Positions 39,001-45,000 of a DNA stretch of 64,000 nt are shown piece after piece. The position numbers were made by a program. The stretch lies in IMG/VR virus record IMGVR_UViG_646311923_000012; one strand, 5' to 3'. The stretch is from a virus (lineage: Duplodnaviria; Heunggongvirae; Uroviricota; Caudoviricetes). Numbering within the stretch: position 1 is the first letter of the stretch; every line of letters begins with the position of its first letter.

Positions 39001-42000
39001 TTGGTGTGATTGCTCCGACCCTGCGGTCATCACCTGCTGCACAGCGCCCGAATCGGCTTTCAGCGCATACGCTGAATCGGCTTCCGGTGTCGTGCCTGCT
39101 GGCTGACCAGGATTGACGGTCTGAACATCCCCTGCCTGGTTCGTGGTGTTTTTTTTGCCATGAACCATAGTGTTTTTGTCCTGTTCCTGTTCTTTCTCCT
39201 GCTCCTGTTCCTGTTCTTGGCTTCGAAGCCCCTTAAAAGCCCCTTCGAAGCCCCTTACCGAATTTCGGCTATTATTCCGCCTCACATCCAGATGGAAATC
39301 CGTTTTATATCTGTCGTAAAACACTGACAGAAAAGCGTTTTCAGGTAATGATGCATACTCATTCCTGACACCTGCACAACGGTTATCGCCAGGCTTCAAC
39401 GTTTCCCCAACCTGCCAGGCTGCCATTTCATGGACCCAGACCATCTCTGCATCATGGTCATAGCTACAAAAACCAGCTTCAACAGCCCTTTTAAGCCCCT
39501 TTGAAGCCCCTTCCAGACCAAGCCCGGTTTCATGAGCAAGGTATAAAACTGGCAGGTAATACAAACCCAGCATATTTGCGTGAGGGGATGTCATCAGGTA
39601 AAAAGCAACAACTTGCGCTTCTGCACCCGCCTTTCTAAGTTCTCTCCCCGTTTCTCCCAGCCAGAATCGCGGAGAAACTTTTGCGTAATCACGCATGGCT
39701 ACCTCATCTGGTGCCGAACCTTCCTCCGGATATAATCTGTGGTTCCCAATCGACAGAACCAGAGGAGGTTCGACATGTATTTTTTGAAAAGCCTTTATCA
39801 GGCTCATGTATTAAATGTTGCAGCAACAAACCGCTGGTGTAACAGCCCCTAAATGCTCCCGGATTACAGAGCCTGGCTGCGCGCCGAAACATACCTTCGT
39901 CTCGACATATTGATTAGCGAACTTCAAAAAGAGACTGCATCCATTCATAACCTTCAGGGTATCGATGCTGTTCGCATTCTGGTATCGCGCCATAGTGCTC
40001 TCTCAATAATTGAAGTGCGTCATCTCTCTTTTTCTGAACTGATTTTCTTGCTTCAACCAGCTCTGGAATCAGCGAATATCCCACCGGAAGTGATCCAATA
40101 CCCACCTCATGTTGACGAGCAGTTACAAGATGTGCCATACAACCAGCGTGCTGGATTGACTCCCTGCTCAGAGGCTGAATGGGATCACTCTCTGCTGAAG
40201 AAATACCAAGATTTGTATAATCCTCAATAAGCCCGGCACACGCTTCTGCATCAGCCAGCTTTATTCTGGTTTCCTTGCGCTGTTCTCTGGCTGACAAACG
40301 CCAGAGCAGCGCATTAGCTTTATGTATCAACCACTCTGCCAGCTCCACATCAGATAAACCGCCACGCCAGATGTGCGGACTGTTTTCGTAAACGCTCAGT
40401 GTCAATTTTTTGTCATTACTCATATTTATTACCCAATTAATGCACAGCCAGAGTGTTTCCTGCCGGGCCACCACGATTCATCTGATCGAACAGAACGATC
40501 GCTGATGCAACGAAATCATCAATATCTTTCACCAGCCGTTCCTTCGTCTCTACCAACTCCCGAAAATAAGCGGAACTGTGGCTGCGCATTCGGGCCACCA
40601 GCGGAGGCGGCATCGCTTTTTCGATCGCTGGTAACAACGCCTGAATTTTTTTAACCGCATCAGGAGTGTCTTTCTCCACCCAGCGGAAAATTTTCTGAGT
40701 ATTGCGAGCCATGGCTTCCGGATGGCTGTCGTCATACAGTTCCGGGAACGTCATTCCCAGCTCGAAATACGCTTTGGTAATTTTCGCAGCCGGTACTTTT
40801 TCGCCGTCCGGATGCGCCCAGGCATTCATCGCCATGCGGATGTGTTCATGCTTGATTTTCATGAATCAACTCCGGCGCATTTGATGTGTTAACCTTACAT
40901 CCAACAGGTAAACCGTCGGTTGGGTTAGGATAAATATCTGGGCGGATTTCATGCGGGGTAACTTCCCACTTCATTAGTTGGCATAACGGAATTACCTGCT
41001 TTGGGGGAACGCCAAAGCTAAACCATTGCCAAACAGTCTGTTGAGCGACCCCCATATAACGACCTATTTCAGCCTGAGTGTATTTCTGCCTAATTTTTTC
41101 GCGAGTGCTATCTAGCATTTTGCCCTCCTCTAAAAACTATAAGCAAAGCCTACAATAAAAAACTGTATGCAATCAACAGTTTTTTATTGTGATGCTTTTA
41201 ACAGTATTTACCTGTAAAATTGAATAATGATGAGCGCCCTAGAAGTATCTATGTACAGAATCAGCAAGCTTCTTCAGGAAACTGGATGGAGCCAGGCTGA
41301 GCTTGCCCGTAGAATTGGTGTGACACAACAAACTGTTCAACAATGGGTCAGCGGTAAGGCTACACCTAAAGCCTCAAGTTTGGATAAACTGGTTGAGGTT
41401 TCAGGGCATCCATTGCATTGGTTTTTATTGCCTCCTGAAGAGTGTGAGCAAATTTTCACCCCTGACACGATGAAAATTGGTCCTCGCCAACGCGAACTGC
41501 TCCAAGCTTTTAGTGCGTTTCCTGAGGAAGACCAAGAAAAAATGCTTCAAGAAATCAAAGACAAGAAAAAATCAATGGAAGAAACCATTGCTAGGTGGCT
41601 GGCGGCACAAAAAAGCCGCCGGGCGTGACCACAGTACAAGAAGAGGAGTTATGCCATGGGTACAGCCCTTTCTCCGATAGTTTCAGAATTCGAAACTACC
41701 GAACAAGAAAACAGTTACAACGAATGGTTGCGCACTAAAGTAACGTCAAGCCTTGCAGACACTCGCCCCGCAATTCCACATGACGAGGTAATGGCTGAAA
41801 TGGAAAATCTTATTGCTCAAATTGCTGTAACTAACAAGAGCGAGTAATGTTACCCATTTTATGGCTACCGTCTGCTCGCGATGATTTGCGCCAGATCATA
41901 ACTTACATCGCCAAGGAGAACCCACCGGCAGCACGTAGACTAAAAATACGCATTGAAACATCGGTATTACCTCTATCTGAGCATCCGTACTTATATCCAC

Positions 42001-45000
42001 CAAGCGAACGGGTTTCTGGATTGAGAGAGATCGTGACCCACCCTAACTACATAATCCTGTACAGAGTAGCTGCTTCAAGCATTGAGATTGTAAGCGTGAC
42101 ACATTCTCGGCGACAATTTCCCTTCTCTATCTGAGTTGAACAATTTTCATACTCCCTCTTTCGAGGGATTTTTTTGCCCAAAACAACAATTAAAAACTGT
42201 TGACACAAAACAGTTTTTAATTGTAGATTACATAAACCAACCACCCACCCCGCCCCACAGAACGCCGGGCAATACTTCGAGTTACCAAGCAGTGGTCAGG
42301 GGGTAAGTAGCCAGCCCGAGGCGTATGAACATGACGGCAGGGTTCAACTTTAATAACTATGCAGCAGGTTTTTGTTCCGCTACCCGGCGTTAAGGGGAAA
42401 TGAGGTCAACATGGATACTATCGATCTTGGCAACAACGAATCTCTGGTGTACGGCGTGTTTCCCAACCAGGACGGTACATTCACCGCGATGACGTATACC
42501 AAAAGCAAAACGTTTAAAACCGAAAATGGTGCCCGTCGCTGGCTGGAAAGAAACTCAGGTGAGTGATATGGATTTCGACACAATCATGGAAAAGGCTTAC
42601 GAAGAATACTTCGAAGGCCTTGCCGAAGGCGAGGAAGCTCTCAGCTTCAGTGAGTTTAAACAGGCGCTTTCCAGTTCGGCAAAATCTAACGACTAACGGA
42701 GTTAAAGATGGAATTTAAAGATTTACTAAAAGAAATCCAGGAAATTGCAGCACATGCACTTCACCAACGTCTGAACGAAGTTGAATTAGAATCTGCAACG
42801 AAGAAATACATTGATAATATGGCTCGTAATGTGCGCGATGCGTTTACCGGATTGTACTCTGTTTCGGTAACAAACAACCAGAATACTGAAGAAACTGCAA
42901 AGCGGATTGCCTCGGTGATGGGTTTTCATGTCGAGGAAAAGTATTCAAAAAAAGAATTCTGGAAAACTACAAAAAAATTGCAGAGCGAGAACTGTCATCT
43001 CCTGCGGCAATCGCTTCTTTCTATGAGGAAAGTTATTCAGATGACACAGGATTACCGGAACTGCTCTCATTACTTGAAAAATTCGGAATTATCATGAAAG
43101 GGACTGCGTCGGCGGATTTCACATACTCAATGATGGCTGCTGATGGAGAGCCTTTTCCTCCCGAACTTAAAATAACCCCCGGCAATCATCCGATGGTAAC
43201 AATAAGAGCAATAGAGAATTACTGGTTTAATCCAGTTCAACAATAGTTGGTCTTTGCAATATTTTTAATGGGCCACTACGCCCTTAATCTCGGGCGGCGT
43301 TTAACTCTTTATTCAGTAAATCAGACTGATACTGATTTGGCTTTGTAATGATACTGTCAAGTTTTGATATATGAAATTCAACATGTTCTGGACAGTTAAA
43401 AATGTAATAACCGCCCTTCTCTAAAAAGCCAGAAAGAGCGTTACAGGCAGGGCATGGTTTGTTTGGCATTTTATCCTCCATTAAGGGCTGAATTAAAAAT
43501 GGAGACCAACACGCTGCTACGTGTGGTCGTGCGCCGGACACAGATAAGAATCCGGCACTGACAGTTTACTGAAAGGATATATCCCTGAAAAGTCAGGGCA
43601 TAACACGAAAGTGCACGGCGAAGTCCTTCTCCCTTAGAGCCGTCGTTAAATTTAATTCGACCGTGCGCTTCCGGTTGTGGCAATCCGCGAAATGGCGCGG
43701 CGGTAAGTATGGCGGGGTTATTCTTTCCCCGTTGAGGACACCGGGTTGTCAGGTTGACCATACGCTTAAGTGACAACCCCGCTGCAACGCCCTCTGTTAT
43801 CAATATTCTGGTGACATTTGGCGGTATCAGTTTTACTCCGTGACTGCTCTGCCGCCCTTTTTTAAAAGTGAATTTTGTGATGCGGTGAATGCGGCTCAGC
43901 GCACGCGGAACAGTTAAATCGGTAAAGCGGTCATTTGCTGAGTAACGAGAATGCTCTGTATCCGGCGTTAATTGTTAACTGGTTAACGTCACCTGGAGGC
44001 ACCAGGCACCGCATCACAAAATTCATTGTTGAGGACGCGATAATGGAAAAGTTATCATGTAATGCCAGCACGTCTGAACTTCGTTTCGAAATTGGCGTTA
44101 TCACTGGAGACAAAACATTTATTGAAGACGCCATTAAGCAGAGAAAACTCGAGCAGGACCTGTTAAATGAAGTATGCATTCCTTCAATGCTGGCTCGTCT
44201 GGACCTGCTGCAAAAAGGATATAAACAATGAATACAACATTTGCACTCGTTCTGACAGTTTATCTTGTTTCCGGCGAATCTCTTGAGCTGGTGACTGGCT
44301 TATACGGTTCAATGAAAGAATGCATGGCTGCAGCAGCAGAACAAAAAATTCCCGGTAACTGTTATCCGGTAGATAAAACTACTCACACTAATAATAACGA
44401 AATACCGGCAGGACTTTAAAACAGCACCGTAATTAATATCCGGTTTCATTTTTATATGCCAGCAATGGCAGGGATTTGTTCACCCTTAAATCTGTAATGA
44501 GGTTAAAACACAATGAGTAAAATCTTTATTTGCGCTGCTATTCCTGACGAACAGGCCATAAAAGAAGATAGCGCTGTTGCGGTGGCCACTGCCATTGAAG
44601 CCGGTGATGAGCGTCGCGCACGCGCAAAATTTCACTGGCAATTTCTGGAGCAATTCCCGGCAGCTCAGGACTGCGCTTATAAATTTATTGTCTGCGAGGA
44701 TAAACCCGGCATACCCCGCCCTGCCCTCGATTCCTGGGATACCGAATATATGCAGGAAAACCGCTGGGATGAGGAGTCAGCTTCCTTTGTACCGGTCGAA
44801 CCAGAATCCGATCCGATGAACGTCAATTTTGACAAGCTGTCCCCTGAAGTACAGAACGCAGTCCTGGTTAAATTCGACACATGCGAAAACATCACCGTTG
44901 ATATGGTGATTAGCGCACAGGAATTACTACAGGAAGACATGGCAACATTCGGCGGACATATCGTTGAAGCGTTGATGAAAATGCCAGAAGTTAACGCCAT

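What the first reader, a model, noticed from the sequence alone, without database searches (positions are those of the whole stretch)
41158..42220. Shared operator half-site AAAACTGT at both ends of the immunity module
The cro/cI intergenic region carries the palindrome AAAACTGT-N9-ACAGTTTT plus an imperfect second copy. A perfect palindrome with the same half-site (42190..42220) follows the TA toxin gene and includes a TTGACA. This suggests OR-like and OL-like sites bound by one repressor, with the cI-antitoxin-toxin genes enclosed between them.
Basis: seen in the sequence. Interest (0 to 1): 0.4.

Follow-up and report, generated by a model that had tools for sequence, protein, structure and literature searches.

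The report
Prophage repressor operators flanking immunity cassette

Summary
AAAACTGT-N9-ACAGTTTT occurs exactly twice in 64 kb: at 41159-41183, between the divergent cro-like and cI-like genes, and at 42193-42217, after the ParE toxin gene and spanning a TTGACA.

The interpretation (OR-like and OL-like operators of one repressor enclosing repressor-antitoxin-toxin) is supported in architecture. The half-site is mis-parsed. Relatives whose repressors are 42-91% identical, in E. coli, Salmonella, Raoultella, Pluralibacter, Morganella and a metagenome contig, conserve 15-bp units ACAR-N7-YTGT, not the A/T runs:
- Three units lie at fixed positions before the repressor ATG (window 41152, 41176, 41201).
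- Two units bracket the -35 of a PL-like promoter (42186, 42210). The cargo between repressor and PL varies.

The repressor's HTH is closest in sequence to phage 434 repressor and keeps the Gln-Gln start of the recognition helix. Its C-terminal part is homologous to PaaR2.

The locus is 100% identical to Sakai prophage Sp4. The sister system PaaR2-PaaA2-ParE2/YdaS-YdaT of CP-933P has been shown experimentally to have this OR/PRM/PR/PL layout with different operators.

Verdict: a new (heteroimmune) member of a known kind, low-to-moderate interest. Binding itself is untested.

The parts
41152..41166 (.). O_R1-like operator ACAATAAAAAACTGT. It lies in the spacer of the leftward (minus-strand) PR-like promoter and shares 1 nt with its -10.
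   Evidence: Matches ACAR-N7-YTGT. A site sits at -75 from the repressor ATG in the relatives (-74 to -80 in L013-L015). It is 15/15 identical in L017 while the flanks diverge.
41176..41190 (.). O_R2-like operator ACAGTTTTTTATTGT, the exact reverse complement of O_R1. It abuts the PR -35 on one side and the weak PRM -35 on the other. Its centre is about -44 from the repressor start.
41201..41215 (.). O_R3-like operator ACAGTATTTACCTGT. It lies in the PRM spacer and shares 1 nt with the -10 TAAAAT.
Evidence: Matches the motif. A site sits at -26 in the Gln39 lineages (L012 with one mismatch) and at -32 in L013.
41147..41176 (-). PR-like promoter for the cro-like (YdaS-family) gene. On the minus strand it reads -35 TTGATT (41176-41171), 18-nt spacer, -10 TAGGCT (41152-41147).
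   Evidence: Read. It is collinear with PL (inverted match, 83% over 41 nt). The TCAA|CA and TA|CA junctions are conserved in relatives (consensus line). It falls below the scan threshold (7/12).
41192..41227 (+). PRM-like promoter: weak -35 ATGCTT (41192-41197), -10 TAAAAT (41215-41220). The predicted start falls on the A of the repressor ATG (41227), giving a leaderless mRNA.
   Evidence: TA(A/G)AAT (TAAGAT in L015) lies 6 nt before an ATG in all lineages; in L008 and L013 this ATG lies upstream of the annotated start. Leaderless paaR2 was shown by 5' RACE and N-terminal sequencing in the sister system (PMC8630535). It is inferred here.
41227..41628 (+). CI-like repressor, 133 aa: N-terminal Xre/434-type HTH, disordered linker, two C-terminal helices. 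Identical DNA to Sakai Sp4 ECs_1069 (PaaR1 type).
   Evidence: Pfam HTH_3 2.3e-12. Best PDB sequence hit is 434 repressor, E 3e-5. 42% identity to PaaR2 over the C-terminal 98 aa. AF2 model. 100% DNA identity to Sakai Sp4.
40846..41118 (-). Cro-like YdaS-family HTH protein, 90 aa, with the predicted recognition helix starting Gln-Gln (AQQTVWQW).
   Evidence: Pfam YdaS 8e-10. QQ is invariant in 9 homologues.
41656..41847 (+). PaaA-family antitoxin (63 aa).
   Evidence: Pfam PaaA2 5.6e-19. PDB 3zbe PaaA2, E 1.4e-20.
41847..42134 (+). ParE-family toxin (95 aa).
   Evidence: Pfam ParE_toxin 2.9e-17. PDB 5cw7 ParE2, E 3e-36.
42153..42175 (+). Intrinsic terminator of the repressor-antitoxin-toxin operon: stem TCCCTC/GAGGGA followed by T7.
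   Evidence: dG -9.6 kcal/mol, z -3.5. The stem is kept with changes in L017.
42186..42200 (.). O_L operator a, ACAATTAAAAACTGT. Its last T is the first T of the PL -35.
   Evidence: The same junction (xTGT|TGAC) is present in window, L017, L002, L011, L012, L005 and L013.
42210..42224 (.). O_L operator b, ACAGTTTTTAATTGT. It fills the PL spacer, and its last T is the first T of the -10.
42200..42229 (+). PL-like promoter TTGACA-18-TAGATT. It drives ydfA/ydfB-like genes, DicF, dicB and the exonuclease.
   Evidence: 10/12 consensus match. Positionally homologous to the PL933P reporter fragment (L019 6524-6641; primers; sequence), which was repressed about 100-fold by PaaR2 and YdaS.

Best explanation
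The two palindromes are the right and left operator regions of the CI-like repressor encoded at 41227-41628. This is the PaaR1-type repressor of E. coli O157 prophage Sp4/CP-933M. The Cro-like YdaS protein probably binds the same sites.

The recognition unit is a 15-bp dyad, ACAR-N7-YTGT, with an A/T-rich centre, bound by one HTH dimer.
- OR has three such sites, with centres 24 and 25 bp apart. O1 lies in the spacer of the leftward promoter PR. O2 lies between the two -35 regions. O3 lies in the spacer of the repressor's own leaderless promoter PRM.
- OL has two sites, 24 bp apart, that bracket the -35 and fill the spacer of the PL promoter TTGACA-18-TAGATT.

Inferred mechanism. In the lysogenic state the repressor on O1/O2 and OLa/OLb occludes PR (cro-like, cII-like and replication genes) and PL (ydfA/ydfB, DicF, dicB, exonuclease). 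O2-bound repressor may stimulate PRM, and O3 gives autorepression at high concentration. The PaaA-ParE toxin-antitoxin pair is passenger cargo, co-transcribed with the repressor and ended by its own terminator upstream of OL. Because the C-terminal domain is shared with PaaR2, which is reported to octamerise, four dimers on O1, O2, OLa and OLb could close a loop of about 1 kb.

Shown here: the sequence, position and conservation of the sites and promoters, and the homologies. Inferred: occupancy, order of filling, activation and looping.
For: 1. Non-random occurrence. There are two exact 25-nt matches and no other at up to 3 mismatches. Of 10 ACAR-N7-YTGT matches in 64 kb, 5 lie within the two roughly 70-bp and 40-bp regulatory stretches, against 4.1 expected for the whole window.

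2. Phylogenetic footprint. Relatives with repressors 42-91% identical keep three ACA-N9-TGT sites at about -75/-51/-26 from the repressor ATG (L012's third site has one mismatch; K/R39 lineages L008 and L014 deviate). Window, L017, L002, L011, L012, L005 and L013 also keep two sites 23-24 bp apart bracketing TTGAC after the repressor operon. Operator columns are 45/45 identical in L017 against 46/63 for the other intergenic columns, and 37/45 against 29/63 in L002. Substitutions fall in the inter-operator spacers. The half-site consensus from 33 sites is A-C-A-R-T-W-W-W.

3. OL stays with the PL promoter whatever lies between it and the repressor. That cargo is PaaA/ParE in the window and L017 (L008 and L014 carry the same cargo but no OL pair was found there), other ORFs in L002, L005 and L011, and no called gene in L012.

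4. PR and PL are collinear copies of one promoter-operator design.

5. [quoted passage not shown] The Thr-Gln-Gln start of helix 3 is retained, and Q34/Q35 are invariant in 17 homologues. 434 operators have conserved outer 4+4 bases and an uncontacted centre (PMC1636474). The Cro-like proteins also keep Gln-Gln.

6. The sister system CP-933P has been tested by EMSA, DNase I footprinting, 5' RACE and gfp fusions. These show a CI-like PaaR2, a Cro-like YdaS, leaderless paaR2, and a PL after parE2 that both proteins repress (PMC8630535). The PL933P fragment maps to the homologous position. PaaR1 and PaaR2 share the C-terminal domain.
Against: There is no binding or expression data for this repressor; nothing on ECs1069 or PaaR1 operators was found in the searchable literature.

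PR is a poor consensus match (TTGATT/TAGGCT, 7/12) and was not called by the scan.

The sites are 15 bp, one base longer than 434 operators, so the 434 contact model is only an analogy.

In the CP-933P paper the exact PaaR2 and YdaS recognition sequences were left undetermined, and both direct and inverted repeats were considered. The sister system therefore supports the architecture, not the dyad model.

OL has two sites, not three.

The exact mirror symmetry of O1/O2 at both OR and OL in this phage (15/15 each; about 11/15 expected from the motif) is not explained by the simple model.
Confidence: 0.85

Rival explanations
1. One repressor dimer (or tetramer) recognises the 25-bp palindrome AAAACTGT-N9-ACAGTTTT as a single operator, once at OR and once at OL.
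For: The two exact copies share the AAAA/TTTT runs. CTGT-N9-ACAG is also kept in relatives, because the operator spacing is fixed. The symmetry centred on the -35 is perfect in this phage.
Against: The A/T runs are not conserved. The L017 OL has TTTATTGT...ACAGTTTT, the L002 OR has TTACTGT...ACAATAA and the L005 OR has AAATTGT...ACAGTTA. The outer ACAA/TTGT elements and the third site at 41201-41215 are conserved but have no partner in this parse. Half-site centres would be 17 bp apart, off-phase for a simple dimer (inference).
Confidence: 0.07
2. The sites are bound mainly by the Cro-like YdaS protein or another factor, and the CI-like protein recognises something else.
For: YdaS homologues also carry an invariant Gln-Gln in the predicted recognition helix. 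In CP-933P both proteins protect overlapping DNA.
Against: The repressor's recognition helix is the one closest to 434 repressor. Lineages with Lys/Arg at position 39 have altered operator positions 4-5. No other conserved repeated motif is present in the 108-bp spacer. Shared CI/Cro operators are the rule in lambdoid switches (established knowledge).
Confidence: 0.05
3. The downstream palindrome acts only as an RNA hairpin or terminator (or a DNA cruciform), not as a protein-binding site.
For: The RNA hairpin would be stable (-17.6 kcal/mol, z -7.3). The scan flags it as terminator-like on the minus strand.
Against: On the plus strand no U tract follows it. A canonical G+C-rich terminator with U7 lies 18 nt upstream. 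The same palindrome occurs between divergent promoters at OR, where termination makes no sense. Arm complementarity is not conserved (9/15 at the L017 OL, 11/15 in L002 and L005) while the 15-bp dyads are. It contains a 10/12 promoter.
Confidence: 0.03

Closest known systems
PaaR2-PaaA2-ParE2 / YdaS-YdaT immunity region of cryptic prophage CP-933P (Sakai Sp12); Jurenas et al. 2021, PMC8630535
   Same: Same gene order: ydaT, ydaS, then divergently the repressor, paaA and parE, then PL. PaaA and ParE are homologous. YdaT is closely related (E 1.4e-82 to PDB 8bt1) and its TTGATT-N6-AATCAA site sits at the same place. The repressor C-terminal domain is homologous. PRM geometry is leaderless. PL lies directly after parE and before the same conserved leader.
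   Different: The repressor N-terminal DNA-binding domains are not alignable, and the Cro-like proteins give no BLAST alignment. The operators differ: a GTTTAGTAA-type consensus with three OL sites there, against ACAR-N7-YTGT with two OL sites here. The two systems are heteroimmune. The window's version (Sp4/CP-933M, 'PaaR1') has no published operator analysis that I could find.
Phage 434 cI/cro and their 14-bp operators
   Same: Best PDB sequence match of the HTH domain (E 3e-5). The Thr-Gln-Gln start of the recognition helix is kept. Operators have conserved outer bases and an uncontacted centre, with multiple sites at OR and OL (PMC1636474). Cro and repressor both carry Gln-Gln.
   Different: Sites are 15 bp, not 14. 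ACAG is commoner than ACAA (41 against 25 of 66 half-sites). There is no S24 peptidase/RecA-cleavage domain; the C-terminus is instead a two-helix PaaR-type domain. OL has two sites. The Cro is YdaS-family.
Phage lambda OR/OL, PR/PRM/PL switch
   Same: Three operators lie between divergent PR and PRM, spaced about 24 bp centre to centre. The repressor mRNA is probably leaderless. A second operator set at PL lies downstream of the repressor operon, which carries passenger genes (rexAB there, paaA-parE here). Long-range looping is possible (knowledge).
   Different: The repressor and operators have unrelated sequences. OR and OL are about 1.0 kb apart rather than about 2.4 kb. Each operator shares only 1 nt with the promoter hexamers. 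The repressor has no autocleavage domain.
DicA/DicC control of the dicB operon in prophage Qin (from memory, not tested here)
   Same: The PL-driven operon here contains ydfA (DUF1391), ydfB, DicF sRNA and dicB. A small HTH repressor without a peptidase domain keeps it silent. tblastn finds weak similarity to genes annotated dicA in STEC prophages (28% identity).
   Different: The repressor is a distant relative at best. I did not compare the DicA operators.

Membership tests
PaaR-PaaA-ParE three-gene module embedded in a YdaS/YdaT lambdoid immunity region | PaaA2-family antitoxin followed immediately by a ParE-family toxin | tested here: met
   Pfam PF21217 5.6e-19 and PF05016 2.9e-17. PDB 3zbe E 1.4e-20 and 5cw7 E 3e-36.
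PaaR-PaaA-ParE three-gene module embedded in a YdaS/YdaT lambdoid immunity region | An upstream co-oriented HTH regulator homologous to PaaR | tested here: met
   42% identity over 98 aa to PaaR2 (E 2e-20), but only over the C-terminal part; the HTH region does not align. The DNA is 100% identical to Sakai Sp4 ECs_1069. Sp4 corresponds to CP-933M, where the paper places the homologous system; the Sp4 = CP-933M correspondence is from my knowledge.
PaaR-PaaA-ParE three-gene module embedded in a YdaS/YdaT lambdoid immunity region | A divergent ydaS (Cro-like) and ydaT (CII-like) operon with a YdaT site at the ydaS/ydaT junction | tested here: met
   Pfam YdaS 8e-10 and YdaT 1.2e-9. YdaT matches PDB 8bt1 at E 1.4e-82. 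Exact TTGATTTTCATGAATCAA at 40852-40869.
PaaR-PaaA-ParE three-gene module embedded in a YdaS/YdaT lambdoid immunity region | The repressor binds OR and OL and represses PR and PL; the repressor mRNA is leaderless | not testable with these tools
   Only sequence geometry and conservation are available. It is shown experimentally only for PaaR2.
Phage 434-type repressor/operator system | A five-helix Xre/434 HTH domain with Gln-Gln at the start of the recognition helix | tested here: met
   phmmer against 434 repressor E 3e-5, with TQQ aligned. Q34/Q35 are invariant. In the AF2 model and Foldseek search, 1pra has TMt 0.76 and rmsd 2.0, but many other Xre proteins score as well.
Phage 434-type repressor/operator system | 14-bp operators with conserved outer 4+4 bases (ACAA...TTGT) | tested here: not met
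   Sites are 15 bp, ACAR-N7-YTGT. With a 6-nt centre there are no hits in the regulatory regions (spacing scan).
Phage 434-type repressor/operator system | A C-terminal LexA/S24-type self-cleavage and dimerisation domain | tested here: not met
   The protein is 133 aa with no Peptidase_S24 hit. The C-terminus is two helices homologous to PaaR2.
Lambda-type tripartite OR plus OL switch | Three adjacent operators between divergent PR and PRM, and a second operator cluster at PL | tested here: met
   Three sites at OR and two at OL, at conserved positions in most lineages examined. OL has two sites, not three.
Lambda-type tripartite OR plus OL switch | Cooperative binding, PRM activation from O2, and OL-OR looping by octamers | not testable with these tools
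   Inference only, from the O2 position (about -44 from the PRM start) and the shared PaaR C-terminal domain. PaaR2 octamerisation is cited in PMC8630535.

The most novel reading that the evidence does not exclude
PaaR-family prophage repressors are modular: a conserved C-terminal helical oligomerisation domain carries interchangeable DNA-binding heads. In this immunity type a 434-like head reads 15-bp ACAR-N7-YTGT sites. Exactly four near-identical, mirror-imaged sites (O1, O2, OLa, OLb) are then held by one octamer in a loop of about 1 kb that encloses the repressor-antitoxin-toxin cassette, so toxin-antitoxin expression and the lysis-lysogeny switch are set by a single looped complex. The Gln39 to Lys/Arg change in sister lineages would be the specificity switch at operator positions 4-5.
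Probability: 0.25. Interest if true: 0.45.

Novelty: new member of a known kind. Interest (0 to 1): 0.3.

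Why it matters
It gives a concrete, testable operator map for the immunity region of prophage Sp4/CP-933M. The map comprises five 15-bp sites, three promoters and a probably leaderless repressor mRNA. This prophage type is present in 509 of 5426 complete E. coli genomes, mostly Shiga-toxin-producing lineages. The repressor is predicted to silence DicF and DicB, which are cell-division inhibitors, and to drive a ParE toxin-antitoxin pair.

It also shows that the CP-933P switch studied experimentally is one immunity type of a wider family whose DNA-binding head and operators have been swapped. That makes the family a natural set for studying how repressor specificity and operators co-evolve. 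None of this changes the textbook picture of lambdoid switches.

Tried and rejected
- Chance: rejected.
- Terminator-only reading: rejected. A separate canonical terminator lies upstream, no U tract follows the palindrome on the sense strand, and the hairpin is not conserved.
- A 434-like 14-bp spacing, and other spacings from 4 to 10: only N7 gives the cluster of sites.
- Literature searches for PaaR1/PaaA1/ParE1 and for ECs1067-1070: nothing on these operators; the hits were T6SS PAAR proteins and reviews.
- Search for the PaaR2 crystallisation paper to obtain its sequence: it failed. I located PaaR2 instead by walking the Sakai annotation.
- PDB sequence search with the Cro-like protein: only insignificant hits, the best real one being Xylella Cro 3bd1 at E 0.15.
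- Foldseek of the AF2 model: it confirms a generic Xre/434 HTH fold but does not single out 434, and it gives no match for the C-terminal helices.
- The sigma-70 scan does not call PR or PRM. Both rest on geometry and conservation.
- Rfam on 39000-47000: only DicF, and nothing for the conserved PL leader.
- RNAalifold of that leader: a 5' stem-loop with two compensatory pairs among five sequences, too little variation to conclude.
- The ungapped repressor identities printed for L011, L012 and L015 are artefacts of indels. Use the alignment instead.

Full report
**1. Observation**

The sequence shows AAAACTGT-N9-ACAGTTTT at 41159-41183 and again at 42193-42217. With up to three mismatches allowed these remain the only two matches in the 64-kb window (0.25 expected), and both are exact.

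The symmetry is longer than reported:
- At the first site the perfect arms are 15 nt, 41152-41166 / 41176-41190.
- At the second site they are 42186-42201 / 42209-42224, extendable to 21 nt at 90%.
- The two regions resemble each other over 39-41 nt.

The second site contains TTGACA (42200-42205), followed after 18 nt by TAGATT. That is a 10/12 sigma-70 match.

**2. Gene context**

Reading rightwards, the region encodes (Pfam):
- on the minus strand, a YdaT-family protein (40437-40862) and a YdaS-family Cro-like HTH protein (40846-41118);
- on the plus strand, a 133-aa HTH protein (41227-41628), a PaaA2-family antitoxin (41656-41847) and a ParE toxin (41847-42134).

A G+C-rich terminator with a T7 run follows at 42153-42175. 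Then come the second palindrome and a plus-strand operon with DUF1391/ydfA, ydfB, DicF sRNA (43806-43857), dicB and an exonuclease.

The repressor gene plus spacer (41119-41640) is 100% identical to prophage Sp4 of E. coli O157:H7 Sakai (ECs_1069, annotated 'phage repressor protein'). It occurs in 509 of 5426 complete E. coli genomes.

**3. What is already known**

The same gene arrangement in prophage CP-933P (Sakai Sp12) has been dissected experimentally (Jurenas et al. 2021, PMC8630535):
- PaaR2 behaves like CI, YdaS like Cro and YdaT like CII.
- paaR2 mRNA is leaderless.
- PaaR2 and YdaS footprint the 97-bp spacer.
- A promoter PL933P with related operators is repressed about 100-fold by both proteins.

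The paper states that a homologue of the system lies on CP-933M. I fetched the Sp12 region (L019). The primers in the paper's supplement place the PL933P reporter fragment at L019 6524-6641. That is directly after parE2 and ends just before a leader, ACCAACCCACCCCGCCCCACAGAACG..., that is also present right after the window's TAGATT. The window's predicted PL is thus positionally homologous to a promoter shown to be repressor-controlled.

The window is not the same immunity type:
- PaaR2 aligns with the window repressor only over the C-terminal ~98 residues (42% identity, E 2e-20).
- The HTH parts do not align, and the two Cro-like proteins give no alignment.
- The CP-933P operators (GTTTAGTAA consensus) are unrelated to those here.

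I found no paper on the operators of the Sp4/CP-933M repressor.

**4. The recognition unit**

The repressor's best match among solved structures is the DNA-binding domain of phage 434 repressor (E 3e-5), with the Thr-Gln-Gln start of the recognition helix aligned. The 434 operators are short dyads whose outer four bases are conserved and whose centre is not contacted (PMC1636474).

Re-reading the spacer in that light gives three 15-bp dyads of the form ACAR-N7-YTGT:
- ACAATAAAAAACTGT (41152)
- ACAGTTTTTTATTGT (41176)
- ACAGTATTTACCTGT (41201)

There are two more at the downstream site:
- ACAATTAAAAACTGT (42186)
- ACAGTTTTTAATTGT (42210)

The motif has 10 matches in the window, against 4.1 ± 1.8 in shuffles. 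Five of them are these sites. Other centre lengths give no cluster.

**5. Comparative test**

I collected homologous repressors (alignment) and their loci:
- L017, E. coli (91% identical repressor)
- L002, Salmonella (80%)
- L011, Pluralibacter (70%)
- L012, Morganella (69%)
- L005, Raoultella (68%)
- L015, a metagenome contig (42%)
- L008, L013 and L014, three lineages with Lys or Arg at position 39

The Gln39 lineages have ACA-N9-TGT sites at -75, -51 and -26 from the repressor ATG (-74 for the first in L015; the third site of L012 has one mismatch). Where the contig reaches far enough, two further sites lie 23-24 bp apart. Their last T's are the first T's of a TTGAC(A) -35 and of a TAGATT-like -10.

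Examples are L017 OL TTTATTGT...ACAGTTTT, L002 OR TTACTGT...ACAATAA and L005 OR AAATTGT...ACAGTTA.

Conservation is concentrated in the dyads:
- Against L017, all 45 operator positions at OR are identical, against 46 of the 63 other spacer positions.
- Against L002 the figures are 37/45 and 29/63.
- In the close relatives L020 and L017 the substitutions fall in the 9-10-nt gaps between operators.

Thirty-three sites give the half-site A-C-A-R-T-W-W-W.

The OL pair stays with PL whatever lies between it and the repressor. That cargo is PaaA/ParE in the window and L017 (L008 and L014 carry the same cargo, but no OL pair was found there), unrelated ORFs in L002, L005 and L011, and no called gene in L012. 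The toxin-antitoxin pair is therefore cargo in the slot that rexAB occupies in lambda.

**6. Promoter geometry**

- PL: OLa ends on the first T of the -35, and OLb fills the 18-nt spacer and ends on the first T of the -10.
- PR, on the minus strand, is a collinear copy: TTGATT (41176-41171), 18 nt containing O1, then TAGGCT (41152-41147). It is a weak consensus match and was not called by the scan. However, the TCAA|CA and TA|CA junctions are conserved and a Shine-Dalgarno sequence follows.
- PRM: TAAAAT (41215-41220) lies 6 nt before the ATG in every lineage, so transcription should start on the A of the start codon, as shown for paaR2 and known for lambda cI. O3 fills its spacer, and O2 ends 1-2 nt before its weak -35.

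Centre-to-centre spacings are 24, 25 and 24 bp. This resembles lambda (from memory: 24 and 23 bp).

**7. Proteins**

Q34 and Q35 of the repressor are invariant in 17 homologues. The Cro-like proteins also keep an invariant Gln-Gln at the start of the predicted recognition helix. This fits a shared set of operators, as in 434.

Lineages with Lys/Arg at repressor position 39, the equivalent of 434 Gln33, have ACAC...GTGT sites (L008, L014) or ACA(A/G)C sites (L013). This hints at covariation but rests on only three lineages.

The AF2 model (pLDDT 81.5) shows a five-helix HTH (residues 4-67), a disordered linker (75-83) and two C-terminal helices (86-96 and 100-131). Foldseek returns generic Xre/434-type HTH domains. 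The 434 repressor 1pra has TMt 0.76 but is not distinguished from others. There is no S24 peptidase domain, so induction cannot proceed by RecA-stimulated self-cleavage. By analogy with Gifsy-type repressors an antirepressor might be used (from memory, not tested).

**8. Rival readings**

- The single 25-bp palindrome model fails on conservation and leaves the outer half-sites and O3 unexplained.
- The terminator or hairpin model fails for four reasons. A proper terminator precedes the palindrome. No U tract follows it on the sense strand. The same structure sits between divergent promoters at OR. O1/O2 complementarity drops to 9-12 of 15 in relatives while the dyads persist.
- Binding by Cro only cannot be excluded without experiments, but it is unlikely given the repressor's recognition helix.

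One feature remains unexplained. In this phage O1 is the exact reverse complement of O2 at both OR and OL (15/15 each), and the four sites differ from each other at only one position. From the motif alone about 11/15 would be expected.

**9. Verdict**

This is a real feature. It is correctly recognised as an OR/OL pair but parsed with the wrong unit. It is the heteroimmune sister (Sp4/CP-933M, PaaR1 type) of an experimentally characterised switch, with 434-like operator logic. It is a new member of a known kind, and interest is low to moderate.

Noticed in passing
window 43806-43857 (+): DicF sRNA (Rfam RF00039, 77 bits, E 3.6e-16) lies inside the operon driven by the predicted PL, upstream of dicB. 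The operators described here would therefore control two cell-division inhibitors.
   Followed up: partly
window 40852-40869: An exact TTGATT-N6-AATCAA spans the ydaS stop and the ydaT start. This is the sequence shown to be the YdaT (CII-like) operator OM in CP-933P (PMC9986795). The window's YdaT matches the crystallised protein closely (PDB 8bt1/3c4r, E ~1e-82), and the PRE933P forward primer matches 40835-40854. The cII/PRE module is thus shared between two heteroimmune prophages.
   Followed up: partly
window 42236-42410; also L019 6640-6815, L002 4032-4204, L008 4010-4178, L017 3616-3790: A leader of about 170 nt directly after PL (ACCAACCcACCCCGCCCCACAGAACGC...GGTCAGGGG...) is highly conserved between prophages with unrelated repressors and operators. 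It has no Rfam family. RNAalifold predicts a 5' stem-loop (CCCACCCC...GGGG, CCAC...GTGG) with two compensatory pairs. Its function is unknown; it could be an antitermination or regulatory RNA.
   Followed up: partly
repressor residue 39 (window 41341-41343); loci L008, L013, L014: Sister lineages with Lys or Arg instead of Gln at the position equivalent to 434 Gln33 have operators with C at position 4 (ACAC...GTGT) or C at position 5. This is a candidate specificity switch.
   Followed up: partly
window 41152-41190 and 42186-42224: In this phage O1 is the exact reverse complement of O2 at both OR and OL, and the OR and OL versions differ by one base per site. Relatives show only 9-14 of 15. 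The cause could be recent conversion between OR and OL or selection for an optimal site; I could not decide which.
   Followed up: partly
window 1159-9449 versus 50920-61281: Direct repeats 90-98% identical lie about 52 kb apart, so the window spans related segments of two lambdoid prophages or a duplicated prophage end.
   Followed up: no
loci L002, L005, L011, L012, L014 (downstream of the repressor gene): The slot between the repressor and OL/PL carries different cargo in different hosts: PaaA/ParE, unrelated ORFs of 112-152 aa, or nothing. L014 has in addition a YoeB/YefM pair downstream of its PaaA/ParE genes.
   Followed up: no
window 41227-41628: The repressor has no LexA/S24 cleavage domain. 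tblastn finds weak similarity (31% identity) to the Gifsy-1/Gifsy-2 repressors, so induction may depend on an antirepressor. I did not search the window for one.
   Followed up: no
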